Shown: positions 1,286-61,722, numbered from the stretch's first letter. The stretch: DNA of 64,000 bases from an uncultured virus (IMG/VR IMGVR_UViG_3300018080_007205) (IMGVR_UViG_3300018080_007205); one strand, 5' to 3'. Translations and numbers: made by a program. The notes: generated by a model from the sequence alone, not told the origin.

Positions 1286-1300
1286 AACGTTTCCTTTCTG

Positions 1301-1441
1301 TGCCCCCGCCAGGAATCGAACCTGGATCTCAGAAGATGCTTGTAGGCTCCGCAGCGTTGGTCCAGCAGGACCGAGTAAGAGAGCTGATGTTGCTCTTTTC
1401 AGGCTTGAATGGCCTGTGACCTACCATTGGTCTACGGGGGC
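1301..1441 (-). ncRNA. tRNA-like RNA (anticodon loop CATTCAA, Glu-TTC-like) with ~75-nt module in variable arm
   Basis: Acceptor GCCCCCG/CGGGGGC, D stem GACC/GGTC, anticodon stem CAGGC/GCCTG, T arm CCAGG-TTCGATT-CCTGG; insert carries ACTCGG and GCCTACAAGCA. Confidence 0.85.
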
Positions 1442-1946: not shown

Positions 1947-2082
1947 TCCCCCCGGAGGGATTCGAACCCCCATCTCACGGGTTGCGCCGGCGACCGGAAT
2001 CGAACCGGCGTGCGCCATCGTCGGACGTCTGCATCCTACTCGCCAACAAAAGCCCGGTGTTCTGCCGTTGAACTACGGAGGG
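1947..2082 (-). tRNA. tRNA (probably Lys-TTT) with ~64-nt tRNA-like insertion in anticodon loop
   Basis: Acceptor CCCTCCG/CGGGGGG, D stem GTTC/GAAC, T arm GGGGG-TTCGAAT-CCCTC; removing 1984-2047 gives loop CTTTTAA (junction ambiguous). Confidence 0.75.
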
Positions 2083-2420: not shown

Positions 2421-2507
2421 TGGGGGCCGAAGGAATCGAACCTCATGCCTGTACAGGAAGTGGGTTACAGCCACCTGCGGGACCATCCCGCCTTATTGGC
2501 GACCCCC
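2421..2507 (-). tRNA. non-canonical tRNA-Tyr(GTA)
   Basis: Anticodon arm GGTGG-CTGTAAC-CCACT, long variable arm CCTG/CAGG, TTCGATT T loop, A73; 6-bp D stem. Confidence 0.75.
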
Positions 2508-2888: not shown

Positions 2889-3932
2889 TTAAAACAAACC
2901 ATGCGGATGGCTCTCTCGCACGCCCGCGGCAGTCTGGCGCATAAACGCAGCATGCTTTCGGAAAGTATCCAGGTCACGAGCGTTCAAGTATGTCATTGAT
3001 GATCTGAGCCCTTCCTCTAGCGCCTTGAAAATTGGCTCAACAGATCCCTTGTATCGCACCTTCTTCCGCTCACCCTCAATGGCTCTAGCATAACCCTTCC
3101 AGCTCTCTTGCGCTTCTCTGGAAGCCATGCCGCGGTAGATCTTGTATGTGTTCCACTGATCTCCGCTCTCAGAAAATACCTTACCAGGGGTCTGCTCGGT
3201 ACCGGCAAAAAGACTGCCTACCATCACAGCATCCGCACCAGCCGCTATAGCCTTTGCGATATCACCGGACTGCCTGATGCCGCCGTCCGCTATCACAGTT
3301 ATCGGTCTGTCTGCTTTTCTTGCAACCTTCGACACATCGATGACGGCTGTGAGCTGTGGTATTCCCACTCCTGTTTGAATTCGCGTAGTACATAAGCTGC
3401 CTGGTCCTACGCCCACTTTCAAGCAATCAGCGCCAGCTCGAATGAGCCTATGGGCACCATCCTCCGTGGCGATGTTTCCAGCTATCACAGGAAGGGTCTT
3501 CCACTCCGACTCTTTCAGCCATCTTATTTGCTCTACCATGGCGTCGCTGTCGCCATGAGCAATGTCGACCAACACCGCGTCGCACTTCTCGCCTATTTCA
3601 TGCATGCGGTCCCTGGCACGGGCACCAACACCAATGCAGCCAACCTTCAGGATGCTGCCCAAGTCGTGTAGCTGTTTGCGCTGCTCCTCAGGAGTCATAA
3701 AACGATGGATAATTCCCAACCCGCCCATCTTATGAATCGCCCGCGCCATCCTGTCCTCTGTCACAGTGTCCATATTCGCAGAGATTATGGGGACAGAGAT
3801 GTATTTGCCTATCGTCGGAAATATGTTGGTGCGCGTACTGACCTCTTCTACGAACCGCGAACTGATCGTATTGTGTACGGGCACCAGCTGTACATCGTCA
3901 TACGTGAGACCTGTTTCTTCCAGAATTCGCAT
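2889..3932 (-). CDS. guaB: IMP dehydrogenase / GMP reductase family (no CBS domains)
   Basis: [14 protein letters not shown], catalytic loop [23 protein letters not shown]; start moved to MRILEE because upstream part overlaps tRNA-Leu. Confidence 0.88.
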
Positions 3933-4432: not shown

Positions 4433-4439
4433 CTTGCCG

Positions 4440-4560
4440 TGGGGATGGAAGGAATCGAACCTTCATAACATTGCGTGTAGGCTTCAAATCGTGGCTCCCA
4501 AGGGAGCCGAGTGAGGAAGCTGAGTATAGCATCGGCTTTTCCAGTTTTGCCTACATCCCC
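4440..4560 (-). ncRNA. tRNA mimic lacking an anticodon arm (replaced by shared module)
   Basis: Acceptor GGGGATG/CATCCCC, D arm GGC..GCC, T arm GAAGG-TTCGATT-CCTTC; only the module lies between D and T arms. Confidence 0.85.
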
Positions 4561-4571
4561 AAATTATTTCG

Positions 4572-4681
4572 TGGAGGCGGAGGGAATCGAACCCCCTATT
4601 GTGCTTGTATGCTTCAAGCGTTGACCCTCCAGGGTCGAGTGGCGAAGCGGTATCAAACGTGATGATCCATTCATCGCCCCC
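4572..4681 (-). ncRNA. tRNA mimic with tmRNA-like ends (G3-U70), no anticodon arm, carrying shared module
   Basis: GGGGGCG/CGCCTCC-A, T arm GGGGG-TTCGATT-CCCTC; GCTTC..ACTCGACCCT/AGGGTCA..GAAGCATACAAGCA. Confidence 0.8.
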
Positions 4682-7209: not shown

Positions 7210-8517
7210 TCAGCCGGAATCGGAATCGTACACAAGCTCTGCGCGCCGGAACTTCCTTTTCCCGACCTGTAGCAGGTACGACCTGCCGCCGCGCAGCTCG
7301 GAAAACTTGTCCAGGATCCTGTGGCCGTCCACCTTGACTCCCCTTCCCTCTATCATGCGCCTGGCGTCGGACACGCTGGAGCACATGCCGAGATGCTTCA
7401 GAAGATGGGCAACGGGAAACTGCGGCACTTCCGACCATGACACCGTGACCGGCTCAAGGTCCGGAGCGACCCTTTCCTGCCCCTTGGGAGGATGCAGCAT
7501 GTCGAACTGGTTCCGGGCTTCCTCGGCAGCCTCCTCGCCATGGATGCTACTGACGATGTCGAACGCCAAAGCGACCTTCTCGGCCTTGCGCCCGCGCTGC
7601 GCGGCAGCCTGCCTCTCGCAGTCGTCGCCCGCCCACAGCAGCTCGTACCACTGGTCCATCGTCTCGTCCGAGATGCTCATGATCTTCCCGAACATCCCGT
7701 CCCTGCTGCCGATGTTGTACGGCGGGTCGCTGAGCGGTATATGGTTGTCCAGAGACTTGGACATCTTGCGCTTGCCGTCCAGGCCCAGAAGAAGATCGAC
7801 GGTGAGGATAATCTGCGGCTTCTTTCCGCAGGTCTCCATTAGGTCCCTGCCGACTGACAGGTTGAACAGCTGGTCCCTGCCGCCGAGCTCGATGTCCGGC
7901 TCAAGCACGACGGAATCATGCGCCTGCATGATCGGGTACATCAGCTCGTGCAGGCCGAGCGAAGCCCCGTCGTCCATGCGCTTGCGGAAATCGCGCCTGG
8001 CCAGCATCTGCTGTGTCGTGAATTTCTCAAGTATTCCCATGAACTCCGGCAAATCCATCTCCTCGAACCACCAGCTGTTGTACGAGAAGGCCGTGAGCCT
8101 GTCGTCAAGGAACTCCGTGATCTTGTCCAGGAATGGCTTCGCGTTGGCCTCCGCCTCGCCATGCGACAGCTTCGGCCTCTCGGCGCTGCGCCCCGTCGGG
8201 TCGCCGATCCTGGCCGTGAAGTCCCCGATAACCAGGCGCACGAAAAAGCCGGCCTCCTGGAACTGCCTCAGCTTGTTTATCAGGACGAAATGCCCTAGGT
8301 GCGGATCCCTGATTGTCGGATCAAATCCGCATTTGACCTGTAGCATGGTCTTCTCGCTGGCGCGCCTGCGCAGCTCCGGAAGCGCGGATTCCCACAGCTC
8401 CCTCGTCATGCCACGCGCCAGTTCGCTTTCGCCGGGGATGGGCGTGCTCTCCGGAGGAGGGTCCACATCAAACCCACCGGACTTCAGAACTTCCTTCTCG
8501 TCATCGCTCATCATCAC
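7210..8517 (-). CDS. tyrS: tyrosyl-tRNA synthetase
   Basis: GFDPT, HLGH, IGDFTARIGDPTG, YPIMQAHD, GGRDQLFN, KMSKS, C-terminal S4-like domain. Confidence 0.96.
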   Translation of the reverse strand: MMMSDDEKEVLKSGGFDVDPPPESTPIPGESELARGMTRELWESALPELRRRASEKTMLQVKCGFDPTIRDPHLGHFVLINKLRQFQEAGFFVRLVIGDFTARIGDPTGRSAERPKLSHGEAEANAKPFLDKITEFLDDRLTAFSYNSWWFEEMDLPEFMGILEKFTTQQMLARRDFRKRMDDGASLGLHELMYPIMQAHDSVVLEPDIELGGRDQLFNLSVGRDLMETCGKKPQIILTVDLLLGLDGKRKMSKSLDNHIPLSDPPYNIGSRDGMFGKIMSISDETMDQWYELLWAGDDCERQAAAQRGRKAEKVALAFDIVSSIHGEEAAEEARNQFDMLHPPKGQERVAPDLEPVTVSWSEVPQFPVAHLLKHLGMCSSVSDARRMIEGRGVKVDGHRILDKFSELRGGRSYLLQVGKRKFRRAELVYDSDSG

Positions 8518-13819: not shown

Positions 13820-15586
13820 TTAGCCGTATCCGTCTTCGCTTTTCTTTTCTTTCGGTCTGGCTGCCCTGATGAGCCTGACCAGCTTGCCGTGCTTCCCCCT
13901 AATTGCGCATCCGGCGGCGAACGGATGCCCCCCGCCGCCCATTGCCTTTGCGATCTCCGACACGTCCAGCCTCTGGTTGGACGTGCGCAGCCTGACCTCT
14001 CCACCTGGTGATATGAGACACACGGATTCGCTCATGCGGGACATGATGGACATGATGTCGGTGATTGCCCACGACGGAACAGGTTCGCTGATCCGCACTA
14101 TCATGAACCCGTTGCGGCACCTGGACGTCCTTGCAGACTGCATGGCCGACAGGACGATGCCGCTGTTGATCTGGTCGACGACCCACACCGTCTCCTGGGC
14201 TATGCTGTCCTCGACGTCCAGCGTGGTCAGAAGCTGCGCCATTTCGGACATTCTCCTTCTAAACAGCGTATCGCCGTAGATGCCGGCTATCAGTATGTCG
14301 TCCCTGATGCCGAAGCACCTGACGAGGATCCCGGCGGTGCTGCACATGTCGATTACGAACACGCCGTTCTCCGGGTCGTGCTTTTTTATCCTGGTGGCGT
14401 GGTGGTCGATATTTAAGATTGGAAGGTCTCCGACTTCCCACCCGATGCGTTCTTTTTCCCATCCGGAATCCAGCACGATTATCTGTTCGGCGTCCTCCGG
14501 CATTTTTTTGAACGACGCTTCTGGCGGCACCATGTCCGCCAAGTTGGAAGGCATGTCGCCCTCCAGCCTGATAGACGACGGCACTCCGTGCTCCGCGAGG
14601 TGCCTGTGAACTGCCACGCACGACGACACCGCATCGGCGTCTGGGTGCGCATGCGCCGTTATAACCGATTTTCTTAGGGGAATGGCATACAGTTTCGTGC
14701 GTTTTTCGATGATGTCTGCAATCTGGTCCGGTGCGGTGACGACCTCCCACAATAATCCGCATTCTATATAGTGCCTAATTTTTGGATGGTCTTCGTCGTA
14801 GGGCGGCTTGCGCGACTGACCAAGTCCATCGACTTCGACCCATACCTCGGTGTTATTGTTAAGGTACACGATAAAGTCGCAACTCCACCAACGCTTGTAT
14901 GTGATTCGCACATCCCCGGCGTATCCGCGGATTTTTCTTGACAACTTCATGGCGAAAAGCTCATCCGCAACGAGCATATTCAGGTTCGACGCGTATTGTT
15001 TGCCATCTTGACCAGTATACTCCGGTCTGCCCTTGTCCTTGCGTATTGACTCGTAGTCCAGGCCGCAAGCCTCAAGCGTCTTTTTCCACGACCCCAGGAA
15101 CTTCTCAGCAGCCCTGAGAAGCTTTGGATGGCGGTAGTAGGCATGCTTGTAGTTCAGCGGCTCAGATGCGTCCTGAAGCTCTCTGACAGCCTCCAGTACC
15201 CTGTTCCTGTCCCACTCAGGCTCTTCGGACGCAACGCCAGCCTGCTCCAAGGCGGAATTCCACGACCCGAACTCCCGCTTGGCGGCACTGTACAGCCCCG
15301 AGGCGCTTTTTCCTATTGTTTCCGGAGAGATATCTTTGCCAGCAAGCGACAGTCTTCCTATCTCCGCAATAATGCGACCTTTTGTCCAATTGTGCGTCGC
15401 CTTGAGTTCGTAGTCGACCCCGCATGACTCAAGAGCCTTGCGCCACGATCCGAACACAGAGCGTGCAGAACCGTACAGGGAAGGATATTCCTCCCTGATT
15501 GCCCCGCCGCCGAGATAGACCCCGTCCGCATCCAGCGCCTTGATGGAAGCGCGGATCTTCTCTTTCGACCATACGCTGCTGTTCAT
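13820..15586 (-). CDS. fusion: helical DNA-binding repeats + PD-(D/E)xK-like nuclease + DHH/DHHA1 phosphoesterase
   Basis: Three FGSW..AL...G repeats; CDFIV...WVEVDG; HAHPDADA, IDHH, GDT, GGGGH. Confidence 0.8.
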   Translation of the reverse strand: MNSSVWSKEKIRASIKALDADGVYLGGGAIREEYPSLYGSARSVFGSWRKALESCGVDYELKATHNWTKGRIIAEIGRLSLAGKDISPETIGKSASGLYSAAKREFGSWNSALEQAGVASEEPEWDRNRVLEAVRELQDASEPLNYKHAYYRHPKLLRAAEKFLGSWKKTLEACGLDYESIRKDKGRPEYTGQDGKQYASNLNMLVADELFAMKLSRKIRGYAGDVRITYKRWWSCDFIVYLNNNTEVWVEVDGLGQSRKPPYDEDHPKIRHYIECGLLWEVVTAPDQIADIIEKRTKLYAIPLRKSVITAHAHPDADAVSSCVAVHRHLAEHGVPSSIRLEGDMPSNLADMVPPEASFKKMPEDAEQIIVLDSGWEKERIGWEVGDLPILNIDHHATRIKKHDPENGVFVIDMCSTAGILVRCFGIRDDILIAGIYGDTLFRRRMSEMAQLLTTLDVEDSIAQETVWVVDQINSGIVLSAMQSARTSRCRNGFMIVRISEPVPSWAITDIMSIMSRMSESVCLISPGGEVRLRTSNQRLDVSEIAKAMGGGGHPFAAGCAIRGKHGKLVRLIRAARPKEKKSEDGYG

Positions 15587-15606
15587 AATTTCCTTTTGGA
15601 AGGATG

Positions 15607-15903
15607 CTACATGTTTTCTGACAAAAAGCGGTCTATTTCTTCCTGAGAACGCAGACCTGTCAGGCGCGCGCACATACACCCCTTGTCCCTGACCAGGACA
15701 AGAGTTGGAATGGACCTTATACCGTATTTCACGGCAACTGACGGGTCCTCGTCTATATTGACGCTTTCCAGCTTGACCCCGCCGTGCTTTTCCATAACCG
15801 ACTCCAGAACGGGAGCTATTGCCTTACAGGGGGCGCACCACGGTGCCCAGAATTTCAACAGGAGGGGCTTGTCCTTTTTTTCAACACCGGCATCAGTTGC
15901 CAT
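15607..15903 (-). CDS. trxA: thioredoxin
   Basis: FWAPWCAPCK, IRSIPTL; GGAGG RBS before 15903. Confidence 0.93.
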   Translation of the reverse strand: MATDAGVEKKDKPLLLKFWAPWCAPCKAIAPVLESVMEKHGGVKLESVNIDEDPSVAVKYGIRSIPTLVLVRDKGCMCARLTGLRSQEEIDRFLSENM

Positions 15904-18916: not shown

Positions 18917-22171
<3,255 letters not shown>

Positions 22172-22198: not shown

Positions 22199-24631
22199 TC
22201 ATTTTCCGGGTCCCATCTCGTACAGGAACTTCCGCACATTCTCAATTTTCCTGCTCTTCGGCACACCGCTCGGGAGGCTCGCAAGGAAAATCCCGCCATA
22301 CGGCTTGACGGCTATCCTCTGGTCCAGCACCACCACGACTCCCCTGTCGCTCATGCTGCGTATCAGCCGCCCGAATCCCTGCTTGAAAGCGATTACGGCC
22401 CGGGGAACGCTGTACGACATGAACCAGCTGTCGCTCCTGGCTGAGATGGCATCCAGGACTGGGTCGTCCGGCGTGGGAAACGGCAGTCTGTCGATCACGA
22501 CGCACGACAGGGAGTCTCCCGGCACGTCCACTCCGGCCCAGAACGACTCCGTTCCCAGCAGCACGGAATCCTTGTCGCTTCTGAACATTTCCACAAGCGA
22601 GGTTCTGGGAGCCTCGCCCTGCCTCATGACGCTCTGTTTGAGCCCTGCAGCCAAGGCGGTCTCGTGCGCCAGCGCAAGGTTCTTGTACGATGTGAACAGT
22701 CCCAGCACGCGCCCGCGAGCCAGCTTGATGGTTTCGACAACGGCATCGGCGACTGCCTGCGGGTACTTGGTCCTGTCAGTGGGCATGGGCATTCCGTCCG
22801 GCACGATCAGCAGCGCCTGCTCTTGGAACCTGAATGGGCTGTCCACTACCAGCTCGTCGGCGACCGCGCATCCCAGCTCGTTTTTCAAATGCCCGAACCT
22901 CCCGTTGACCGCAAGCGTCGCAGATGTCGTAACAACGCTTTTGGAAGACTTGAAGAGCGCCTCGTCCAGCATCGCGCTGACGGAAATGGGTTTCCCCTTC
23001 AGCACAACCGCCTTGTTGCTCTGGATTTCCTCCAGGAAATACACTTCGTTGCTTTCAGCCAGCGTCATTGCGGCGCGGACGTTTCCGGCGATCCGGGCGG
23101 CTGCAGCCGCCGCCTTGGCGTACGATGCCTTCTCATCCCGCTCTACAGCGTTGATCATGGCGCTTCTGAACACCAGCCTGACCTTGTCAAGGGATTCGCA
23201 CAGCGGCTTCCACGCCACGCCCTTCGGCGGCTTCTTGAGCCGTGTTTTGTACTGGCGCGACCTGTACAGCTTCCCGAGGTCGTAGAACATCTGCGACGAC
23301 TGCTCCTTGAGATCCCGGTACAGCCTGGACGGGTCCTCCTCCCCCTCGGCGTGCCGCAGCTTGCTGAGCGGGCTGGCCGCGAATGTGATGCTGCGTTCAG
23401 ACACCCTGAATCCGAAAAAGTCCCTGGCTATGTCCGCCGCCTTGTGCCCTTCGTCGCAGACCACAAAGTCGTAGTCCGGCAGCACGGAAGCCGTACCATC
23501 AGAGGACATGCGGACCTTCAGGTCCGCGAACAGGAGATGGTAATTCGTCACGAACACATTGGCGGACGATGTGCCAGCCTTTGCTCTTTCCGCATAGCAC
23601 TCATCGCGCGACTTGCAGTCGCTGCCCTTGCACTCGTCGCTCGTAACGGAGAACATCCGCCAGATGTCGCCGTACGGCTCGAAGTCCAGCTCGGACTTGT
23701 CCCCGGCGCGCGTGGCGCGCCCCCATTTGATTATGTCGCGGTACTGCTTGAGCCTGACCCTGCTGCTGCGCCCCTTGAGGCTGCTGTCACTCTGCTCCGA
23801 CTGCCAGCGGTCGACGCACAGGTAGTTGTTCCTCCCCTTGATGAGGGCGAACGTGAAATCGATCGGCAGCGCTTTCTTGAGGAACGGCAGGTCCTTGCAG
23901 AACAGCTGCTCTTGCAGGGCGATGTTGGCGGTTACTATTGCAACTTTGACATTTTGCTGTACTGAGCAGTAGGCGGCAGGTATACCATAGGCTATGGACT
24001 TGCCTGTATTGTGCGTCACTGTGAAATCATCTAGTAGATATCTACCATCGCCATCCAACGAAAACCCGAAATAGTCTTCAATCTTTCCGGTCCTCGAAAC
24101 AGAGAATCCTGTTCTTAGAACATTTTTTTTCTCAACTCTGAAAAGTTGATAAATATGTTTTCGGCTTGTCGACCATTCTTCCCATTCTCTAATCGGCACA
24201 TCCAAAACCTCTCCGTCTCTATAATCCTTGCTGCCGGTTTCTATGGGTGGTTTCGTGTTAGTGCGAACAAGCGTTAGGATGTGGCTCCTATTCACGCGCC
24301 ATGCGTTTCCCTTGGTGGGGATGATGTCAACCATTTCTTCACGACCACGGCAGAGCGATAGTACGGTTCTGGCATGGTCATCTGGTCCCATGAGTTTGTC
24401 GCCGACTATAATGTCCTCTACCGTTTTAAGAGACCCGTCGTACATAAGAATTTTCTGACCGGCAGCATGACATCCGGTCGGTCCCTCAACCATCAGATGG
24501 CGACTCTCCCGGAACGACCTGTCAACCGCCCTTGCCATCTCCACCTGTCCGGGGCGCGGCTGATAGTCGTCGAAATGCTTGGAGAGTATGCCGCCCGGAC
24601 CGAACACTTCCGCTATGTATCTTGGCTCCAT
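22199..24631 (-). CDS. DinG/YoaA-family helicase containing an intein
   Basis: RPGQ Q-motif, EGPTG|TGKS Walker A, KGRNNYLC, FeS Cys, DEGH, TSATL, FWAGVDVPG, QGFGRLIRS. Confidence 0.95.
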   Translation of the reverse strand: MEPRYIAEVFGPGGILSKHFDDYQPRPGQVEMARAVDRSFRESRHLMVEGPTGCHAAGQKILMYDGSLKTVEDIIVGDKLMGPDDHARTVLSLCRGREEMVDIIPTKGNAWRVNRSHILTLVRTNTKPPIETGSKDYRDGEVLDVPIREWEEWSTSRKHIYQLFRVEKKNVLRTGFSVSRTGKIEDYFGFSLDGDGRYLLDDFTVTHNTGKSIAYGIPAAYCSVQQNVKVAIVTANIALQEQLFCKDLPFLKKALPIDFTFALIKGRNNYLCVDRWQSEQSDSSLKGRSSRVRLKQYRDIIKWGRATRAGDKSELDFEPYGDIWRMFSVTSDECKGSDCKSRDECYAERAKAGTSSANVFVTNYHLLFADLKVRMSSDGTASVLPDYDFVVCDEGHKAADIARDFFGFRVSERSITFAASPLSKLRHAEGEEDPSRLYRDLKEQSSQMFYDLGKLYRSRQYKTRLKKPPKGVAWKPLCESLDKVRLVFRSAMINAVERDEKASYAKAAAAAARIAGNVRAAMTLAESNEVYFLEEIQSNKAVVLKGKPISVSAMLDEALFKSSKSVVTTSATLAVNGRFGHLKNELGCAVADELVVDSPFRFQEQALLIVPDGMPMPTDRTKYPQAVADAVVETIKLARGRVLGLFTSYKNLALAHETALAAGLKQSVMRQGEAPRTSLVEMFRSDKDSVLLGTESFWAGVDVPGDSLSCVVIDRLPFPTPDDPVLDAISARSDSWFMSYSVPRAVIAFKQGFGRLIRSMSDRGVVVVLDQRIAVKPYGGIFLASLPSGVPKSRKIENVRKFLYEMGPGK
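24008..24472 (-). mobile_element. mini-intein (155 aa) in helicase Walker A
   Basis: Starts CHAAGQ, block-B-like NRSHILT, ends VTHN before +1 Thr; no endonuclease domain. Confidence 0.93.
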
Positions 24632-24993
24632 CAGCCTTGCTCTTCCATATCGTGCGACGACCTCATTTTTGACGACTGGATAGTATCGATGATTGTTTTC
24701 CTGAGATCGGATCCGGCCGGCGTCGTGTCCTTGATAAGGTGGCTGAAGCACGGCATACACAAAGTAAGCGTGTCATGGATGCTGGTGTCGGAATCCGCCC
24801 CCTTCCCGTTGAAGAAGTGGATGTCCAGCACGCACCGCCACACGTGGTCGGTACAGATATCGCAAGTACACGCATCGCACGGTCGCGACTCAGCGCGCTT
24901 GCCGCATGCCGGAATGTCGCATTTGCGGTACGTGACAGTTTCCGTGATCTCCATCTCAATCACCCTGCTGTTCGTTGCTGTTTTCCGAGACAC
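24631..24993 (-). CDS. hypothetical Cys/His-rich protein
   Basis: CDIPAC, CDAC, CTDH, CMPC. Confidence 0.6.
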   Translation of the reverse strand: MSRKTATNSRVIEMEITETVTYRKCDIPACGKRAESRPCDACTCDICTDHVWRCVLDIHFFNGKGADSDTSIHDTLTLCMPCFSHLIKDTTPAGSDLRKTIIDTIQSSKMRSSHDMEEQG

Positions 24994-29806: not shown

Positions 29807-30967
29807 GTTCCCTTAAACTTGGACATTTTGTCCAGAGTCTTTGGGTTTGTACAGGGCACCGTAAGGTCCCTGAAGAAATCGCGAAAGTATGTTAGAGGCA
29901 GCATTTACATCTGCGTTTTCGCTGTAGTCACATTTCAAACATCTAAATACTTCGCCTTTGCGATTTCCCCTCTCGGTATGACCACAATTAGAACAGCGTT
30001 GAGAAGTATGAGCAGAGGGCACAGATCGAAAAGTAATACGATTACTTTCCGTTGCCTGTTGTAATCTGCTCAACCAATAACGATAATTCCAACTACCAAG
30101 AGAACGACGCATATTTTTATTCAAGCGCCGTTTGAGTTTTGTTTTATAATTTAAGTTCTTAAGTTTCTCTACAACAATCAGTTGCGGGCCTTCATTTACA
30201 ATTTCTTTAACTGTTTCATTTATGTATTGTTTTAAAGCATTTCTTCTTCGTTTTTGACTCTTCGAACCATATTTACATCTTTTAATCTTTTCAATATGTT
30301 GTTCAACTTCTTTTCCAAATTGTTTTCCATCAGAAGTAGAAGCAAGTGCTTTGATGCCCGTGTCTATTCCAATTAACTTACCAGAGGTTTTCTTTGGTTG
30401 AGTTTTTATCTCGAACACAAATTGAACATAACCTGGTGTAATTATATAAGCGTTTAGTCGTTTCCCTTTACTATTCCACTTATTGAACTGCCTGTGATAT
30501 TTAATTGGAATGTCTATAATTGTTTTATTTCCAATTGAAGAAAGATGTAACCATGCGTCAAATGAAGTATTCTTGTTTGACTGTAGATCAGCAATGGTTG
30601 AAGAACAACACATTCTTTTACCTTTGTGAATGGGCATCTTAATTTTGCTTGGTTTGTTCTTCCATCTTTGTTTTACAGATTGAATCATATCTATTGCTTC
30701 ACGAGCAGCAACTTTTCTTAACCTCGCAGATAACCAAGTTTCGGGCAGGTTAACCACATCTTTTAGCAATTGTGCTTTACCTATATTTTTGTCCCAAAAA
30801 TATTGAATAAAGAAATTACATACTTTGCCGTATTCAACAAGAATAGTTTCCAGTTTTTGTTTCTTATATTGTGTAGCAAATTTAATACTACATTTAACGG
30901 ATCGTGTGAATTTCATTTATTCCTCTTTTGTCTAAAAATGTCCAAGTTTATTGGCTACTGTTTAATA
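29805..30967 (-). mobile_element. TnpB-only insertion sequence (IS607/IS1341-like) inserted in dut
   Basis: AT-rich 1163-bp insert with GGT at both junctions; 16-bp inverted repeats at 29814-29829 and 30935-30950. Confidence 0.9.
29813..30916 (-). CDS. tnpB: TnpB RNA-guided endonuclease
   Basis: RuvC GIDTG, VVEKL, NADVNAA; TSQRCSNCG...FRCLKC zinc finger. Confidence 0.93.
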   Translation of the reverse strand: MKFTRSVKCSIKFATQYKKQKLETILVEYGKVCNFFIQYFWDKNIGKAQLLKDVVNLPETWLSARLRKVAAREAIDMIQSVKQRWKNKPSKIKMPIHKGKRMCCSSTIADLQSNKNTSFDAWLHLSSIGNKTIIDIPIKYHRQFNKWNSKGKRLNAYIITPGYVQFVFEIKTQPKKTSGKLIGIDTGIKALASTSDGKQFGKEVEQHIEKIKRCKYGSKSQKRRRNALKQYINETVKEIVNEGPQLIVVEKLKNLNYKTKLKRRLNKNMRRSLGSWNYRYWLSRLQQATESNRITFRSVPSAHTSQRCSNCGHTERGNRKGEVFRCLKCDYSENADVNAASNILSRFLQGPYGALYKPKDSGQNVQV

Positions 30968-31287
30968 CCCTTTGGCAAAGATACCGTCCTGTTTTCTAGG
31001 TTCACCAGGCAGACCTGAATCTCTCCCCTATATCCGCAGTCAACCGTCCTAGGAGAGTTCAGCACGGTCACCCCATGTTTTACCGCCAGCCCTGATCTGG
31101 GTCTTATCTGCCCTTCTGTTCCTAGGGGCAGCTCGACCGCTATCCCGCATGGTATCAGTTCGTATGCCCCAGGAATGATGGTCGCATCCTGGCATGAGAA
31201 AAGATCGACTCCTGCGTCTCCTGGCATTGCCCTGCGCGGCAGCTTTGCATCGACATGTAATCGCTTTATTTTTATCATCTTATTCAC
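30967..31287 (-). pseudogene. dut: dUTPase N-terminal fragment
   Basis: AGVDL, RPRSGLA, VDCGYRGEI; truncated at IS junction. Confidence 0.92.
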
Positions 31288-31681
31288 TCCTGGCTATAAA
31301 TCGGTCTTTGGAGCGCCTGACGATTTGCCAATCCAGCTGCCTAATAATGCGGTCAAGGCTGTATGGTCTTCCGTTTTTTGCGGGGTACATTTCGACAACC
31401 GCATAGGCTCCATTCCTGCTTACGCGCCTTATCTCTTTTATGAGGTTTCGGCGTTCCCGTTCAGTCATAAAACACATTAGGTAGTTGCACAATATGAGAT
31501 GGGCGCATCCGTCCTCGGCGGGAATGGGATCCCTCCCGAGATGGGCCTGTATGCCATAGTCTCCGGCAGCATCGACGGATATTACATTATACCCGTACAT
31601 GGATGCCAGGTTTGAGTTTCTCAGATTTCCGCAGCCCAAGTCGATGGCCACGACCCCCGGCCACCTTGGGATGCCTGGCAA
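31280..31681 (-). CDS. small class I SAM-dependent methyltransferase (5' end probably frameshifted)
   Basis: IDLGCGNLRNS, ILCNYLMCF. Confidence 0.75.
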   Translation of the reverse strand: MPGIPRWPGVVAIDLGCGNLRNSNLASMYGYNVISVDAAGDYGIQAHLGRDPIPAEDGCAHLILCNYLMCFMTERERRNLIKEIRRVSRNGAYAVVEMYPAKNGRPYSLDRIIRQLDWQIVRRSKDRFIARSE

Positions 31682-31732
31682 ATGCTTTCGCAGATAGGGC
31701 GTGGCTATCCTTTTTATGGCAGCGAAACACTC

Positions 31733-34950: not shown

Positions 34951-35421
34951 CTAGATGACCATGCAGCACCCGCCGGGGGCTGGCAGCTCGGTTCCGTCCG
35001 AGTTGTTCCTCAGGACGACCCTGCCGTCGTCCGCAACCCTGTCCACAGTCCAGCGGTTTGGTCGTGACCGGGGCAGCGGCGGAGGCTCAAGAGCCACTGT
35101 GGCGCCAATCAGGTGGCGGTAGCTTTTCTTGTCCGGAGCCTCTTGCCGACCACCAGCCGCATCGAAGAGGGCGTCCGCGACCTTTTCCCATTTTACCAGA
35201 GGTATCGACCGGTTGTCCGTTTCTTTCTCCCAGTACACATCCCACCACGCATTGATGCCGTCGCCGTCCATTCTTATCCTGACGTTGTTGTCGATCGGGA
35301 GGAACCCGCGCACATTGGCTTCCGCAGAAGCACGACCGGCATCCTTAAGCAGCTCAAGCACTATGTCCCGCGTAAAGCCGTGCTGCGACACCATCCTGTT
35401 CAGGAACTCAAGGCGCGTCAT
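34951..35421 (-). CDS. hypothetical protein
   Basis: ATGA-coupled to PARP gene. Confidence 0.65.
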   Translation of the reverse strand: MTRLEFLNRMVSQHGFTRDIVLELLKDAGRASAEANVRGFLPIDNNVRIRMDGDGINAWWDVYWEKETDNRSIPLVKWEKVADALFDAAGGRQEAPDKKSYRHLIGATVALEPPPLPRSRPNRWTVDRVADDGRVVLRNNSDGTELPAPGGCCMVI

Positions 35422-49578: not shown

Positions 49579-49579
49579 T

Positions 49580-55168: not shown

Positions 55169-55429
55169 CTAATCTCCTTCCGTTATGAAAAGATATGTCG
55201 GCACAACCGGAGCTGGCGGCTTCGATGGGACCTTCCGCTCCCATACAGTCCTGCCGCACCTCTTATTGCGGCATTTCCACGACAGCTGTCCGGCAGAGCC
55301 GGACGCCCCGCGCGGTCTCAATATTCCCCCGCAGTGCTTACAGAGGATGGCGTTCGGATTCTTTTTCTTCCTCCTTGCCTCCCTGCTCCTGCGCTTGTTC
55401 TGTTTCTTGTCGTACTTTCCTTTTCCCAT
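55169..55429 (-). CDS. basic zinc-ribbon protein
   Basis: CKHC...CRNKRC. Confidence 0.6.
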   Translation of the reverse strand: MGKGKYDKKQNKRRSREARRKKKNPNAILCKHCGGILRPRGASGSAGQLSWKCRNKRCGRTVWERKVPSKPPAPVVPTYLFITEGD

Positions 55430-56189
55430 TTTCTAATCTCTTTCCGATTTTGATTTTTTCGCGCACCAGCGCGTCCGCCATCCACTGCCTATTCATTAAT
55501 GAACGCATCTCCCCTATCACCGGCACGAGTGTGCCAGCCGCCATGCCCACCGCAAACCTCCATGCCTTGTGCTTCTTCGGATCGCACTCGCATGCGTCCA
55601 GGATTTCCAGAAGATGCCTGGCAAGCTCCTCCGGTCTTTCTCCGAATGTCACCGAGCCCTTTTCGTGGAACTCGTCCAGCGCCGATACGATCCTGTTCTC
55701 GGACACCGGCGCAAACCCCCACTGGTCCACGCCGACATTCAGGTTCTTTCCGTTCGTGAGCCATTTCTCATGCACATGACCGCACAGGACGAAATCGTGC
55801 TTTTTGAACTCATTATCCAGGTCCAGCCCCTTGTACTGGCGCGGATTGCCCACCCCGACCGGGATGTGCGTCAGAATACATTTCCATTTGCCAACCTTTA
55901 TGCTGATCCAGTCGTGGACCTCAGCATAAAGGTAGTCGAACTTCCTGTGGTCGTGGTTCCCGCGCACGAGGATAATCCTGCCGTTCAGGTGATGAACATG
56001 CCTGTTCGGGCGGAACGATGTGTCGCCCAGATTGTACACCGTATCTTCCGGCGCAACCCTGCTGTTCCACAGCCTGGTCATGTCCTTGTTCATCTCATGC
56101 GTGCTGGCATACGGCCGGTCGCAGTAGTCTGGGCGTATGATATTCTTATGACCGAAATGCGGGTCAGCTATGAACCATTTCCTAGACAT
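55338..56189 (-). CDS. calcineurin-like metallophosphoesterase
   Basis: DPHFGH, LGD, GNHD, THIP, GHVH, NVGVD. Confidence 0.92.
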   Translation of the reverse strand: MSRKWFIADPHFGHKNIIRPDYCDRPYASTHEMNKDMTRLWNSRVAPEDTVYNLGDTSFRPNRHVHHLNGRIILVRGNHDHRKFDYLYAEVHDWISIKVGKWKCILTHIPVGVGNPRQYKGLDLDNEFKKHDFVLCGHVHEKWLTNGKNLNVGVDQWGFAPVSENRIVSALDEFHEKGSVTFGERPEELARHLLEILDACECDPKKHKAWRFAVGMAAGTLVPVIGEMRSLMNRQWMADALVREKIKIGKRLENGKRKVRQETEQAQEQGGKEEEKESERHPL

Positions 56190-59120: not shown

Positions 59121-60488
59121 CTATAAAACGCGGTCTCTGCTGGACCGCTTCTTTGCGTCGGCGCGCAATTTGGACCGCGTTTTTGCCTTGATGTCCGACA
59201 TTTCAGCCACACGGCGCATCTGTTTGATCTGAGACGGCAGCGGATCAAATCCTATCACGGATACGCGTTTGACTATTTCCTTCAAATAGGCACCTGTCAT
59301 TCCATCAGTAAGGGTTGACAGGTCTTCCATCTGGTCTTTGGTTAATTCAACATCCAGATGTTTAGCATAGGCTTCTAGGATTTTTTTACGCAGCCTCTTG
59401 TTCGGAGCCTTGAACTCAACAATTTCGTCGAACCTACCCGGTCTTCTGAGCGCCTTTGGAACATCCTCGACATCGTTAACCGTAGCTATGATCAGGCGGT
59501 TCCTGTTGTTTCTGACGCGTCTATTCAACTGCTCGATTTCGTTTAGCATATCTTCGGGACGCCACACCCTGTCCATATCGTCGAATAGGACAACCGCCGG
59601 ATCAACCATTTCGATGATGTTCTCTAGCGCATTGAACTTCAGTTGATCCAGGCTTTTTGGGCTGACAACCAAGAGCTTCCCCTCCATGCGACCGGCTATT
59701 CTGGCGGCTAGCGTTGTTTTCCCAGAACCTGGCGGACCGAAGAACAGCAACGACCTGTTGATGTTGAGCATATAGAACTTGTTGATATTTTGTACAAGCT
59801 CGCTTTCGTCAATGTGACTGACATACACCTCACTGCCGAGGTCCAGGTCCGTCAGGTATGGAGAGTTATCCCAGTTCTTCACCATGGTTTCGATGGATAT
59901 CACGGATCCCATGTGTTCCTCTACGAGCTGGGAAAATGCATTGACAAAGCGCTTCTTGTTCAAGACCCACGGTCCGCGCACGCGTTCGTAATCTTCATCG
60001 TTCTTCTGTAGGCAGAAATATACCTTTTCTCCGTGAATTTCGTACTCTTCGATTTTTTCCGGATCTTCCCCGTCCTTATGCTCCTCCTCCTCCCACAATT
60101 TCCTACATGGTATGTCAAGGTTCTTGAATGTCAGGTGCGTAAATCCGCTCATGGACGGGAATACAAGCGATGCGCCAAGCTCCTTCATCTTGTCCTGGCT
60201 GGACTCACCCTCGCCTTCGAAGATGTCGGCAACTATGCCGTAGGTCGAAAGTGCCCCCAGACCGATCGATATGGGATCCTTCCGCTTTACAGCCCAATAC
60301 ACATACAGTGCTTCCCTAGCCGCTGCGGCTATCTTGCTGATGGTCTTGTGGACTTTGCGCTGCTTTGACTTGGATGTTGCGCGTCTGATAAAGGGAGACT
60401 TCTCAACAACCTGTTCGACCCCTTCCAACTCTTTCCTTCCGGCTATGTACGACACAAGACTGAAGTCAGTCATCACGCCTCCGTTCAT
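59121..60488 (-). CDS. AAA+ ATPase (paralogue of 39049..40455)
   Basis: GPPGSGKT, VLFDDMDR, ATVND, RRPGRFD. Confidence 0.9.
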   Translation of the reverse strand: MNGGVMTDFSLVSYIAGRKELEGVEQVVEKSPFIRRATSKSKQRKVHKTISKIAAAAREALYVYWAVKRKDPISIGLGALSTYGIVADIFEGEGESSQDKMKELGASLVFPSMSGFTHLTFKNLDIPCRKLWEEEEHKDGEDPEKIEEYEIHGEKVYFCLQKNDEDYERVRGPWVLNKKRFVNAFSQLVEEHMGSVISIETMVKNWDNSPYLTDLDLGSEVYVSHIDESELVQNINKFYMLNINRSLLFFGPPGSGKTTLAARIAGRMEGKLLVVSPKSLDQLKFNALENIIEMVDPAVVLFDDMDRVWRPEDMLNEIEQLNRRVRNNRNRLIIATVNDVEDVPKALRRPGRFDEIVEFKAPNKRLRKKILEAYAKHLDVELTKDQMEDLSTLTDGMTGAYLKEIVKRVSVIGFDPLPSQIKQMRRVAEMSDIKAKTRSKLRADAKKRSSRDRVL

Positions 60489-61722
60489 CTCTCACAAGTT
60501 TCCGCACGAGCGCTTTGAGGCGGTCCCACTTGCTGTCGTATATGAGGAACATCATCGTCTTGATAACCGAATGCTGGCGCACGGCAATGGCTGCGAAGCC
60601 TTTGCGATGCTCCTTGGTCCCTGGAAGAGGCGGATCCTTCTTGCGCGCAACTGCCGCAAACATAACGTCCGCCGACGCCTCGCCGGCCTTTTTGCCAGCC
60701 TCGCACATCCATGCCCTGGCATCTTCGACAGCGGCTGTGTACCTGGCATACAGCTCTTTGGCCGACTCGATGATTTCCCAGTCATAGTCACATTTTTTCA
60801 AGTACTCAGCCAGATCATCCTCGGAACCGATGTTCGACATCTCCGCAAACTCTGTAATCGTGGAGTACTTCATGTTGGACTTCAGCCTGTGGTGCGCCAA
60901 GTACCAGGCGCTCTTAACCTTAACTAGGATCGTGTTTCCGCGCTCGTCGAAGCATCTTGTAACCACACCCTCCGTCTTCCAGTCGCGCACCTCCGACATC
61001 AGCTCCGCCGGGTTCCTGGGAAGTTCCTCGCGCCTAACCAGGTTGAGACCGCCGGACTTGGCTGCCATCTCCAAATAACTCCAGTCAGCAAGCTTAGGGG
61101 TCGGGTGCTTCATTTCGTAGCTGTCCGGAATCATGTTCTTAGGGTATGTCAGGACTGCGCCGACGAGCACCAGGTCCGGCTCGCCGTACCTCACCACTAT
61201 CGTATTGTCGGGAGCGACATACTCGAAAAGGAGCGAGTCCATGCGCCAGCATGTCGGATCCAGCAGTTTAGGGTACTTCTTCTCCGCCACGGCGCGGAAG
61301 CGCTCTGAGAACGTCGGTCCCCTGTCATCCATGGATGACTCTCCGAACAGAGTTCCGCGAGTGCGCATGACAACCTTGCCATCGATCACCGACCGTATAC
61401 AGAGAGTTCCGTCCTCTTTGTGCGTGAACAGGACGCGCCCTTCAGAGAGTGCTCTGTTCAGGATCTCCGTGTCCTCTTGAAATTCCCCATAATTGCCGAA
61501 CTTGGGAAACGAGCAGGACACCACGATTCCCTTGTGGTTCACCATCACGGACCTGAGCCAGCGCTCCTCCGGCACCCAGTCCCACTTGTTCTTTTTCGGA
61601 CAAACCAGCGTCAGCAGGCTGTCGTCATCCTTGACTATCTTGAATTCGCTCGTGCTGATCTTATTCAGATCAAGCCTGAGGTCGTCGTCAGTCCTGTGCC
61701 ACATATTTACTTGCCTCCCCAT
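60466..61722 (-). CDS. T4 Rnl1-like RNA ligase
   Basis: SFPKFGNYGE, KEDGT, LLFEY, EGVV, KVKSAWY. Confidence 0.88.
   Translation of the reverse strand: MGRQVNMWHRTDDDLRLDLNKISTSEFKIVKDDDSLLTLVCPKKNKWDWVPEERWLRSVMVNHKGIVVSCSFPKFGNYGEFQEDTEILNRALSEGRVLFTHKEDGTLCIRSVIDGKVVMRTRGTLFGESSMDDRGPTFSERFRAVAEKKYPKLLDPTCWRMDSLLFEYVAPDNTIVVRYGEPDLVLVGAVLTYPKNMIPDSYEMKHPTPKLADWSYLEMAAKSGGLNLVRREELPRNPAELMSEVRDWKTEGVVTRCFDERGNTILVKVKSAWYLAHHRLKSNMKYSTITEFAEMSNIGSEDDLAEYLKKCDYDWEIIESAKELYARYTAAVEDARAWMCEAGKKAGEASADVMFAAVARKKDPPLPGTKEHRKGFAAIAVRQHSVIKTMMFLIYDSKWDRLKALVRKLVRDERRRDD

What the first reader, a model, noticed from the sequence alone, without database searches (positions are those of the whole stretch)
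1947..2082. tRNA with a second tRNA-like element nested in its anticodon loop
Seen: the 64-nt insert (1984-2047) has its own acceptor-like stem (GTTGGCGA/TCGCCGGC), T arm (CCGG-TTCGATT-CCGG) and small D-like hairpin, but no clear anticodon arm. Removal restores a 7-nt loop. CTTTTAA (Lys) is simplest, but junction shifts give TTC or TGC. Inference: host tRNA end-processing nucleases could excise the inner mimic and the phage Rnl1/PNK could rejoin the halves, giving splicing without a dedicated endonuclease.
Basis: partly seen in the sequence, partly recalled or inferred. Interest (0 to 1): 0.75.

Follow-up and report, generated by a model that had tools for sequence, protein, structure and literature searches.

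The report
tRNA-shaped intron in phage lysine tRNA
A large sediment phage carries a lysine tRNA gene whose anticodon loop is split by a 64-base insert shaped like a miniature tRNA, which hints that ordinary tRNA-trimming enzymes plus the phage's own RNA ligase could splice it, although no RNA data yet show this.

Summary
Rfam calls a tRNA at 1947-2082 (-) with a large insert in the anticodon loop. The 64-nt insert (2047..1984) is a 7-bp acceptor helix stacked on a perfect T arm, with a GG-containing linker and no anticodon arm. Deleting it leaves a canonical 72-nt tRNA-Lys(UUU).

This is not chance: a strict acceptor/T-arm motif is expected 0.11 times per window.

In IMG/VR I found 12 further families of phage tRNAs whose anticodon loop holds a tRNA mimic starting at the 5' junction. 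In 8 of 13 families, this one included, the insert ends at the last encoded nucleotide of the N73-CCA register. The window's other tRNA genes keep C74 only (11 of 13), as does the insert (G-C|AA).

The 3' cut must fall after C74, and a kinase is not needed.

Nothing is shown at the RNA level, close relatives are lacking, and ligase co-occurrence is not enriched.

tRNA-like introns in phage tRNAs were noted, unexplained, in Lak megaphages in 2019. This scan has reported similar inserts on other DNA.

The parts
1947..2082 (-). Interrupted tRNA-Lys(UUU) gene, 136 nt
   Evidence: Rfam tRNA 48.5 bits with a loop insert. ARAGORN calls Lys(ttt) after removal of the insert.
2048..2082 (-). 5' exon, 35 nt: acceptor 5' strand, D arm, anticodon stem 5' strand, and loop C32-U36 (CTTTT)
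   Evidence: Sequence and script.
1984..2047 (-). 64-nt insert (candidate intron): tRNA-like minihelix plus G73 and C74
   Evidence: Its removal restores a 7-nt loop CTTTTAA.
2041..2047 (-). Inner acceptor 5' strand GTTGGCG. The predicted RNase P site lies between 2048 and 2047.
   Evidence: 7 of 7 pairs with 1986-1992. U at -1 and G at +1 read directly from the sequence.
2020..2039 (-). Inner linker hairpin (core GGATG-CAGA-CGTCC, 2023-2036) holding the D-loop-like GG (2035-2036)
   Evidence: MFE fold. AGG/GG motif shared with other inner elements. The variant at 2027 keeps the pair as G-U.
1993..2009 (-). Inner T arm GCCGG-TTCGATT-CCGGT
1986..1992 (-). Inner acceptor 3' strand CGCCGGC
1984..1985 (-). 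Inner discriminator G73 (1985) and C74 (1984). The predicted 3' cut lies between 1984 and 1983.
   Evidence: Loop arithmetic. Same N73-C74-nonC style as 11 of 13 tRNA-like genes in the window.
1947..1983 (-). 3' exon, 37 nt: A37 A38, anticodon stem 3' strand, variable loop, T arm, acceptor 3' strand, and discriminator A
60466..61722 (-). Rnl1-family RNA ligase, 418 aa: candidate sealing enzyme
   Evidence: PF09511 38.1 bits. T4 Rnl1 structures 2c5u/5tt6 at E 1.7e-4 to 8e-4, with KEDG aligned.
21548..22171 (-). P-loop polynucleotide-kinase-like protein, 207 aa, kinase domain only
   Evidence: AAA_33 E 3.6e-22. Best solved relatives 4gp6/4jst at E 3e-8 and mammalian PNKP kinase domains at E 2e-3.
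55338..56189 (-). Calcineurin-like phosphoesterase: a possible 3'-end healing enzyme (inference only)
   Evidence: PF12850 E 9e-9.

Best explanation
The gene is transcribed as a 136-nt precursor of tRNA-Lys(UUU). Its anticodon loop is interrupted between U36 and A37 by a non-decoding tRNA mimic. The mimic is an acceptor/T-arm minihelix with a D-loop-like GG, a discriminator G73 and C74.

Because the insert looks like a tRNA, the host's tRNA end-processing enzymes act as the splicing nucleases. RNase P cuts 5' of the inner G+1 (window 2048|2047). An RNase Z/BN-type 3' endonuclease cuts after the encoded part of the CCA register, here after C74 (1984|1983).

The two exons stay held together by the acceptor, D, anticodon and T helices. 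They carry a 3'-OH and a 5'-phosphate in the anticodon loop, and the phage Rnl1-type ligase (60466-61722) seals this nick to give a 72-nt tRNA-Lys.

Shown: the anatomy, the exact restoration of the loop, the ligase and kinase genes, and the class-wide regularity of the insert ends.

Inferred: every enzymatic step, and that splicing happens at all.
For: 1. The outer gene is a complete, high-scoring tRNA (48.5 bits). Removing 64 nt gives a canonical Lys(ttt) cloverleaf.

2. The insert is a 12-bp acceptor/T stack with a consensus T loop. Its 5' end abuts the exon with U-1/G+1:C72/G73/C74. Such a motif is expected 0.11 times per window by chance.

3. The arrangement recurs. Four pattern scans and a structural filter (402 matches, 24 rows) gave 12 other families in which a tRNA or minihelix starts within 5 nt of the outer anticodon stem. 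Five outer genes checked by Rfam (this one, L057, L127, L130, L136) score 43.8-51.8 bits.

4. In 8 of 13 families, the number of nucleotides that must go after the inner acceptor equals 1 plus the length of the encoded CCA prefix. Of the 7 families needing 4 nt, 5 read exactly N-CCA (P about 2e-8), and all 5 also encode CCA on the outer tRNA. Both families needing 1 nt lack C74 on the inner and the outer element.

5. In this window, 11 of 13 tRNA-like genes have C at 74 and none has C at 75 (P 7e-6). The insert has the same G-C-A-A tail.

6. In one family (L142 against L147), the exons are 69 of 70 identical. The insert is only 27 of 42 identical, and 5 of its 7 acceptor pairs are changed on both sides yet still pair.

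7. Rnl1 and a polynucleotide-kinase-like gene are present.

8. Passages read in PMC7479834 state that some RNase Z enzymes cut just downstream of an encoded CCA, and that E. coli RNase BN removes 3' ends from precursors ending in CA or CU.
Against: - No RNA run holds this phage, so no spliced junction has been seen.
- No close relative with or without the insert was found, so conservation of this particular insert cannot be tested.
- A textbook RNase Z cut after N73 would leave an 8-nt loop. A cut after C74 is an assumption.
- 5 of 13 families do not fit the end rule (L296, L433, L019, L055, L130).
- My filter demanded intact outer and inner helices, so intactness of the outer genes is not independent evidence.
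- Any clean DNA insertion also restores the loop when it is deleted.
- Folding energy is not better than shuffles.
- Rnl1 (PF09511) was found in only 3 of 14 carrier records, and in 1 of the 3 that are at least 90% complete. Counting either ligase family over its cut-off gives 2 of 3 near-complete carriers, the same as the 2 of 3 near-complete controls.
- The related Lak-type inserts have 29-36 extra nucleotides 5' of the minihelix, and RNase P alone cannot remove those.
Confidence: 0.4

Rival explanations
1. The insert is a DNA-level insertion, for example a copy of a processed tRNA-like RNA or a small mobile cassette dropped into the anticodon loop. It is never spliced. The gene would then be a recently killed tRNA-Lys, or it would yield only tRNA halves and a free minihelix.
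For: - Deleting any clean insertion restores the loop.
- Insert ends that equal mature tRNA ends, including CCA, are also what a copied mature RNA would carry.
- Whole tRNAs nested in other tRNAs exist (L055, L019, L296).
- Earlier notes of this scan read such nests in CPR bacteria as gene replacement.
- The genome is rich in selfish elements: an intein in the helicase, a TnpB, and an HNH repeat.
- No RNA evidence exists.
Against: - The inner element cannot decode, so it cannot replace the tRNA it splits.
- The outer gene shows no decay: 7 of 7 acceptor pairs, 4 of 4 D-stem pairs and 5 of 5 T-stem pairs.
- I saw no flanking target duplication in the sequence.
- In the L142/L147 family, the exons stayed 69 of 70 identical while the insert diverged with compensatory changes. 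This argues for a working, spliced gene there.
Confidence: 0.2
2. The insert is removed at the RNA level by other nucleases. One option is a staggered double-strand cut of the RNase III type across the near-continuous helix formed by the outer anticodon stem, loop pairs and the inner acceptor. Another is an unidentified phage endonuclease. Rnl1 ligation follows.
For: - The proposed junctions leave 2-nt 3' overhangs on both products (G73-C74 on the insert, U35-U36 on the exon).
- U33-A38, U34-A37 and U36-G73 can pair, giving a rod of about 21 bp (read from the sequence).
- RNase III products are 3'-OH/5'-phosphate (textbook knowledge).
- Earlier scan notes proposed this route for hairpin mini-introns in phage tRNAs.
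- Several ORFs of 300-390 aa in the window have no family.
Against: - It does not explain why a consensus T loop and a GG linker are kept.
- It does not explain why other families have 1-nt or 4-nt (N-CCA) tails instead of a constant 2-nt overhang.
- No RNase III gene is seen among the 85 ORFs scanned.
Confidence: 0.2
3. The unspliced or merely cleaved RNA is the product. It could be a decoy or sponge for host nucleases that attack tRNA-Lys(UUU). Or it could be a source of a free tRNA-like minihelix with its own function, with no mature tRNA-Lys intended.
For: - The same array holds at least five other non-canonical tRNA-like genes (1300-1441, 1576-1710, 1785-1921, 4439-4560, 4569-4681), so this phage makes tRNA mimics.
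- tRNA-Lys(UUU) is a known target of anticodon nucleases (recalled: PrrC).
- The inner element resembles a tmRNA-type tRNA-like domain.
Against: - The exons keep every feature needed for a decoding tRNA, including a loop that becomes CUUUUAA only after exact removal. A decoy would not need this.
- Class-wide, the loop arithmetic always allows a 7-nt loop (partly imposed by my filter).
Confidence: 0.15
4. Assembly or chimera artefact.
For: The contig comes from a metagenome.
Against: - The stretch lies inside a 68-kb contig of run X1 with no differences.
- It is also in a second stored record with 1 difference in 1299 nt.
- Analogous structures recur in unrelated contigs.
Confidence: 0.01

Closest known systems
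'Enigmatic' introns in tRNA genes of Lak megaphages (Devoto et al. 2019, PMC6784885; passages read, Table S6 seen)
   Same: Both are short inserts in the anticodon loop of phage tRNA genes. One Lak insert was noted to 'itself encode a possible tRNA'. No self-splicing core and no mechanism are given. In my loci of that type (L012, L081, L091, L106, L107, L137, L282, L443, L469), the insert also ends in a minihelix followed by N73-C74.
   Different: Lak-type inserts have a further 29-36 nt, including a hairpin, between the exon and the minihelix. Here the minihelix abuts the exon directly. The host phage here is an unrelated 55% GC sediment phage (the paper gives 26% GC for Lak). The paper gives no rule for the ends and names no enzymes.
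Phage T4 tRNA repair: PrrC anticodon nuclease, Pnkp and Rnl1 (recalled; review PMC3400036 seen only in a search listing)
   Same: An Rnl1-family ligase and a polynucleotide kinase sit in the same genome as a broken-loop tRNA-Lys(UUU). The proposed last step is the sealing of a nick in the anticodon loop.
   Different: In T4 the break is damage made by a host defence nuclease, and its ends need healing. Here the break would be programmed by an insert and made by tRNA-processing enzymes, giving ends that need no healing.
Protein-spliced tRNA introns of archaea and eukaryotes (bulge-helix-bulge motif, splicing endonuclease plus ligase; review PMC4090602 seen in a listing and abstract)
   Same: Both are a short intron in the anticodon loop, removed by protein enzymes and a ligase rather than by self-splicing.
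   Different: There is no bulge-helix-bulge here; the junctions lie in a 5 x 4 internal loop. The position is 36/37, not 37/38. No splicing endonuclease or RtcB was found among the window's ORFs. The recognised structure would be the intron itself.
Group I introns in bacterial tRNA anticodon loops (preprint 10.1101/2020.01.27.920355, abstract seen)
   Same: An insert in the anticodon loop of a bacterial-type tRNA gene.
   Different: 64 nt is far below group I size. No Rfam intron or ribozyme family matches.
tRNA-like elements used as processing signals: tmRNA tRNA-like domain, mitochondrial tRNA punctuation, MALAT1 mascRNA (recalled)
   Same: An acceptor/T-arm mimic without an anticodon arm, recognised by RNase P and RNase Z to release flanking RNA. 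The inner element's only Rfam similarity is to the tmRNA acceptor/T-arm frame.
   Different: Here the flanks would be rejoined into a tRNA. The element has no alanine identity pair, no messenger part and no CCA.

Membership tests
tRNA (Rfam RF00005), outer gene | Covariance-model score above the gathering threshold, with all four arms | tested here: met
   48.5 bits against 29, model positions 1-71. After removal of the insert, ARAGORN calls Lys(ttt), 72 nt.
tRNA (functional), inner element | An anticodon arm with a 7-nt loop | tested here: not met
   Only a 5-bp hairpin with a 4-nt loop lies between the acceptor and the T arm. No tRNA hit is listed on the insert alone at E up to 10 (3 lower-scoring overlapping same-clan matches are left out of that output).
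tRNA-like minihelix (RNase P / RNase Z substrate type) | A 7-bp acceptor stacked on a 5-bp T stem, a T loop of TTCRANN type, and a single-stranded N73 | tested here: met
   Strict motif hit at 1986-2047. MFE fold.
tRNA-like minihelix (RNase P / RNase Z substrate type) | Actual cleavage by RNase P and RNase Z | not testable with these tools
   Needs in vitro cleavage or RNA sequencing. No RNA run is available.
Lak-type phage tRNA introns (Devoto 2019) | An insert in the anticodon loop of a phage tRNA that ends in a tRNA-like element followed by N73-C | tested here: met
   Tail G-C-A-A here. Tails N-C-A/T in 9 of 9 Lak-like loci.
Lak-type phage tRNA introns (Devoto 2019) | A 5' hairpin segment (29-36 nt) between the exon and the minihelix, as in my Lak-like loci and Table S6 | tested here: not met
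   The minihelix starts at the first intron nucleotide.
Group I intron | A conserved catalytic core, with length of about 200 nt or more | tested here: not met
   The insert is 64 nt. No Rfam intron hit.
Archaeal/eukaryal protein-spliced tRNA intron | A bulge-helix-bulge motif at the junctions, and a splicing endonuclease | tested here: not met
   The junctions lie in a 5 x 4 internal loop between two helices. No endonuclease family was found among the 85 ORFs scanned. The rest of the contig was not seen.
T4 Rnl1 family (protein 60466-61722) | A nucleotidyl transferase domain with the KxDG lysine motif | tested here: met
   PF09511 38.1 bits against 28.3. KEDG aligns with T4 Rnl1 2c5u.
T4 Rnl1 family (protein 60466-61722) | A C-terminal tRNA-specificity domain, and sealing of anticodon-loop nicks | not tested
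   The alignment to T4 Rnl1 stops at query residue 329 of 418. No fold or assay was done.
Bifunctional polynucleotide kinase-phosphatase (protein 21548-22171) | A P-loop 5'-kinase domain | tested here: met
   AAA_33 E 3.6e-22. 4gp6 E 3e-8. That 4gp6 is the kinase domain of a bacterial Pnkp is recalled.
Bifunctional polynucleotide kinase-phosphatase (protein 21548-22171) | A 3'-phosphatase domain in the same protein | tested here: not met
   The protein is 207 aa and only kinase-type families match.

The most novel reading that the evidence does not exclude
Phages use a third, so far undescribed route of tRNA splicing. The intron is itself a tRNA mimic, so the universal tRNA end-processing enzymes (RNase P at its 5' end, an RNase Z-type enzyme at the end of its encoded CCA register) serve as the splicing endonuclease. 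A repair-type RNA ligase (Rnl1/Rnl2) serves as the splicing ligase. The route is widespread, with at least 13 families in IMG/VR-type data. In this phage it matures the very tRNA (Lys-UUU) that host anticodon nucleases target.
Probability: 0.35. Interest if true: 0.85.

Novelty: new variant of a known kind. Interest (0 to 1): 0.7.

Why it matters
Bacteria and their viruses are thought to have only self-splicing tRNA introns. Enzyme-spliced tRNA introns are a hallmark of archaea and eukaryotes.

A tRNA-shaped intron removed by RNase P, RNase Z and a repair ligase would be a new and very simple splicing pathway built from housekeeping parts. It would also explain the 'enigmatic' Lak megaphage introns, and it would give phage RNA ligases a role beyond damage repair.

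The end rule found here makes exact, cheap predictions for where each insert is cut: the insert ends at the last encoded nucleotide of its own N73-CCA register, matching the style of the phage's other tRNA genes.

The finding also matters for annotation. Standard tRNA finders missed this gene, so phage tRNA sets are under-counted.

Tried and rejected
- RNA evidence: no RNA holder is listed for this DNA. Laying the two DNA runs gave only tRNA cross-matches and no insert-free form.
- Whole genome: none is held, and the record behind L141 cannot be searched. The remaining 42 kb of the contig was therefore not examined for a second tRNA-Lys or for nucleases.
- Relatives: the phage collection gave only generic tRNA matches. 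The TyrRS neighbour has no relative in viral contigs. The neighbouring 134-aa protein has 2 relatives, on contigs of 937 and 9983 bp that I could not fetch. An exon-anchored pattern in metagenome contigs found only the window's own record.
- Identity of the outer tRNA by similarity: BLAST of each exon hits tRNAs of many different specificities and does not separate Lys from Glu or Ala.
- ARAGORN with introns allowed is too permissive to fix junctions: many junction pairs pass.
- L029/L126, the only locus with BLAST similarity to the gene's 3' part, has two T arms but no recognisable outer tRNA. I dropped it.
- Ligase co-occurrence: PF09511 was found in 3 of 14 carrier records, and PF09414 in 5 of 10 at E up to 1e-3 (4 of them over the cut-off). 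No RtcB was found in 5 records. Controls had each family in 2 of 4 records. No enrichment is shown.
- Thermodynamics: z-scores near +0.5.
- Known ribozymes or introns in the insert: none.
- Literature: searches found no paper on tRNA-like introns spliced by RNase P/Z plus ligase. Al-Shayeb 2020 (PMC7162821) has no occurrence of 'intron'. Crisci 2021 (PMC8346664) only restates that Lak tRNAs contain introns. The Devoto supplements have no occurrence of 'spliced'.

Full report
**What is there**

Rfam finds seven tRNAs in the window. Two of them (1785-1921 and 1947-2082, minus strand) are about twice the normal length. ARAGORN in default mode misses both.

The alignment for 1947-2082 places all four arms and leaves 67 nt unaligned in the anticodon loop (48.5 bits, gathering 29). 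Read on the minus strand, the gene is:
- acceptor CCCTCCG/CGGGGGG;
- D arm GTTC-AACGGCA-GAAC;
- anticodon stem CCGGG/CCCGT;
- loop CTTTT, then 64 nt, then AA;
- a 5-nt variable loop;
- T arm GGGGG-TTCGAAT-CCCTC;
- discriminator A.

The 64 nt (2047..1984) begin with GTTGGCG, which pairs 7 of 7 with CGCCGGC at 1992..1986. A 5-bp T stem and a TTCGATT loop (2009..1993) sit immediately inside that 3' strand. Between the acceptor's 5' strand and the T arm lie 31 nt, holding a small hairpin and a GG. G73 and C74 follow the helix.

The minimum-free-energy fold of the insert is this minihelix.

**Is it more than chance?**

Folding energy says nothing here: z is +0.49 for the insert and +0.50 for the gene, and GC-rich shuffles fold as well.

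The motif does carry information. I scanned for a strict acceptor/T-arm descriptor (5 of 5 T-stem pairs, a TTCRANN loop, 7 of 7 adjoining acceptor pairs). It hits the real window three times: tRNA-Leu, tRNA-Cys and the insert. In 100 dinucleotide shuffles it hit 0.11 times on average. One hit also falls exactly in the loop of another tRNA.

The DNA is in a 68-kb contig of the likely source run. It is also in a second stored record that differs at one base in 1299. That base (window 2027) turns a G-C pair of the inner hairpin into G-U.

**What the spliced product would be**

Joining the exons in a script gives three readings:
- removing 64 nt gives a 72-nt tRNA-Lys(UUU) with loop CTTTTAA;
- removing only the minihelix plus G73 (63 nt, the textbook RNase P plus RNase Z outcome) gives an 8-nt loop;
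- shifting both cuts by one or two nucleotides gives Glu(UUC) or Ala(UGC).

Exon BLAST does not decide between them. The discriminator A and the end rule below favour Lys.

**Context**

The window is part of a large phage genome. It carries Lon, GroEL, TyrRS, IF3, peptide deformylase, ribosomal protein S21, a PARP, a ThiF/E2/JAB set, cytosine methylases, a TnpB and an intein-bearing helicase.

- 60466-61722 is an Rnl1-family ligase. PF09511 scores 38.1 bits, and T4 Rnl1 structures match at E 1.7e-4 with the KEDG motif aligned.
- 21548-22171 is a kinase-only P-loop protein. Its best solved relatives are 171-aa chains 4gp6/4jst (E 3e-8), which I recall to be the kinase domain of a bacterial polynucleotide kinase-phosphatase.
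- A calcineurin-like phosphoesterase lies at 55338-56189.
- No RNase III, RNase Z, RtcB or splicing endonuclease family appears among the 85 ORFs scanned. About 42 kb of the contig lies outside the window and could not be read.

**Relatives of this gene**

None are usable. The phage collection, a neighbouring-gene search and an exon-anchored metagenome pattern returned only generic tRNA matches or the window's own record. No RNA run holds the phage.

**The same build elsewhere**

I then filtered 402 matches for four features: a perfect inner acceptor, a perfect outer acceptor, an outer D stem, and an outer anticodon stem at the right distances.

Twenty-four rows passed. Two are this window's DNA. 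The other 22 split as follows:
- 15 rows (12 families) have the inner helix starting within 5 nt of the outer anticodon stem, as here.
- 6 rows have 29-36 extra nucleotides first. This is the type shown in Table S6 of Devoto et al. 2019 for Lak megaphages.
- 1 row is odd.

The inner elements range from bare minihelices with 9-14-nt linkers to complete tRNAs. Of the seven short ones, six have AGG and one has CGG near the start of the linker. The window's insert has GTAGGAT at the same place. This suggests a D-loop mimic that docks on the T loop (inference).

Rfam recognises the interrupted outer genes of L057, L127, L130 and L136 at 43.8-51.8 bits.

**A rule for the ends**

Assume the 5' junction is the first nucleotide of the inner helix. 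The number of nucleotides that must be removed after the inner acceptor to leave a 7-nt loop then follows from arithmetic alone.

In 8 of 13 families, that number equals one (the discriminator) plus the length of the CCA prefix encoded after it:
- four nucleotides reading N-CCA in five families (L266, L281/L147, L335/L348, L367, L375);
- one nucleotide, followed by T, in two families (L337, L394/L416);
- two nucleotides, G-C followed by A, in this window.

Seven families need four nucleotides. Five of them have exactly CCA, and the chance of that is about 2e-8.

The outer tRNA genes share the same style. All five N-CCA families encode CCA on the outer gene too. The two one-nucleotide families have no C74. 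Here the outer gene reads A-CGA.

In this window, 11 of 13 tRNA-like genes have C at position 74 and none has C at 75 (P 7e-6). The insert's tail therefore looks like the 3' flank of an ordinary tRNA gene of this phage.

Five families break the rule or are ambiguous (L296, L433, L019, L055, L130).

In the nine Lak-like loci, the tail is always N-C followed by A or T. A cut after C74 gives sensible anticodons where the body constrains the choice, for example a long-variable-arm body with UAA in L012. In L081-type genes the reading (GUU or GUA) stays open.

**Evidence that such inserts sit in working genes**

Two variants of one tRNA-Gln family (L142, L147) were found with a pattern that fixed only the exon ends. 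Their exons are 69 of 70 identical. Their inserts are 27 of 42 identical, and five of the seven acceptor pairs are changed on both strands yet still pair.

This is the pattern of a maintained structure inside a maintained gene. It is one family, not this one.

**Mechanism**

The insert's ends are those of a mature tRNA. The simplest reading is that the enzymes which make such ends cut it out.
- RNase P would cut at U-1/G+1. That context, with G+1:C72, a purine at 73 and C74, is the favoured one by textbook knowledge.
- A 3' endonuclease would cut so as to spare encoded CCA nucleotides.

Passages I read in PMC7479834 state that Thermotoga RNase Z cuts just downstream of encoded CCA, that RNase E can directly generate a CCA end, and that E. 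coli RNase BN removes the 3' ends of precursors ending in CA or CU. Behaviour of this kind would give the 4-, 1- and 2-nt tails seen.

Both enzymes leave 3'-OH and 5'-phosphate, the ends that an Rnl1-type ligase joins directly (textbook knowledge).

All of this is inference. The cut after C74 in particular is an assumption.

**Rivals**

A clean DNA insertion of a copied, processed tRNA-like RNA would produce the same ends without any splicing. My filter's demand for intact helices removes the argument from intactness.

An RNase III-type staggered cut fits this gene's two junctions exactly: 2-nt 3' overhangs on a roughly 21-bp rod with U33-A38, U34-A37 and U36-G73. But it explains neither the T loop nor the 1- and 4-nt tails elsewhere.

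The RNA might also act uncut, as a decoy. The array holds at least five other odd tRNA-like genes.

RNA ligase genes are not enriched in carriers. PF09511 is in 3 of 14 carrier records. Among near-complete records, either ligase family (over its cut-off) is in 2 of 3 carriers and in 2 of 3 controls.

**Novelty**

Devoto et al. 2019 reported conserved introns in Lak phage tRNAs, stated that introns in phage tRNAs had not been reported before, and noted one intron that may encode a tRNA. They gave no mechanism, and their supplements contain no occurrence of 'spliced'.

Six full-text searches found no paper proposing RNase P/Z plus ligase splicing in phages.

Earlier notes of this scan describe similar inserts on other DNA, including the same idea for a tRNA-Tyr insert. 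They are leads, not support.

New here are:
- the direct-abutting variant in an unrelated high-GC phage;
- its location in tRNA-Lys(UUU) next to an Rnl1/kinase set;
- the CCA-register rule linking insert ends to each phage's own tRNA gene style.

Noticed in passing
window 1300-1441, 1576-1710, 1785-1921, 4439-4560, 4569-4681 (all minus strand): Five over-long tRNA-like genes share a module between the anticodon region and the T arm. The module is a stem (GCTTC/GAAGC type) enclosing (C)CACTCG, a hairpin and a variable strand, followed by CTACAAGCA. Some keep an anticodon arm with an odd loop (ATTTGGA, CATTCAA or a 21-nt loop), and two lack the arm. Four other phage loci carry the same module before a T arm (L184, L187, L188/L191; L172 in part), among 114 pattern hits that were mostly chance. 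No Rfam family fits; the best is manA RNA at 20 bits against 55.
   Followed up: partly
window 4569-4681 (-): This tRNA-like RNA has no D arm or anticodon arm. Its acceptor helix has a G3-U70 pair and it gives a 30-bit tmRNA-frame match (gathering 47). It might be chargeable with alanine. I did not test this.
   Followed up: no
window 2422-2507 (-) and 7210-8517 (-): An 86-nt element (weak tRNA-Sec hit, 23.5 bits) has an acceptor, a T arm, a CTGTAAC loop (GTA, Tyr) on a 4-bp stem, a long variable-arm hairpin and an extra hairpin. It lies 5 kb from a phage TyrRS gene and may be its cognate tRNA.
   Followed up: no
window, 3' flanks of 13 tRNA-like genes: Position 74 is C in 11 of 13 genes and position 75 is never C. 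These genes therefore encode only the first C of CCA (P 7e-6).
   Followed up: partly
window 2027: This is the only difference between the window and the stored metagenome record L141 in 1299 nt. It lies in the inner hairpin stem and changes a G-C pair to G-U.
   Followed up: yes
L055, L019, L296 (viral contigs): Complete tRNAs (for example a tRNA-Phe of 72.4 bits in L055) sit inside the anticodon loop of another, intact-looking tRNA gene. If processed as proposed, one gene would yield two tRNAs.
   Followed up: partly
L142/L145 and L147/L148 (viral contigs): Two variants of one interrupted tRNA-Gln(UUG) gene have near-identical exons. Their minihelix inserts have acceptor stems that differ at 5 of 7 pairs on both strands.
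   Followed up: yes
window 29813-30916 (-), region 30001-32000: A TnpB/Cas12f-like gene (PF07282) lies in the only low-GC stretch of the window (0.44 against about 0.55). It is probably an IS605-type insertion.
   Followed up: no
window 22199-24760 (-), 13820-15679 (-): The helicase carries a Hint/homing-endonuclease (intein) domain. A DHH/DHHA1 phosphoesterase carries a homing-endonuclease-associated repeat. Selfish elements are common in this genome.
   Followed up: no
window 2889-3923 (-): An IMP dehydrogenase/GMP reductase family gene (E 1.4e-102) sits in the middle of the tRNA array. It explains the 'Listeria phage' fragment hits.
   Followed up: partly
window 47951-50266 (-), 35418-36896 (-): A ThiF-like E1, a prokaryotic E2 and a JAB-domain protein lie in a row. 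A WGR-PARP gene is also present.
   Followed up: no
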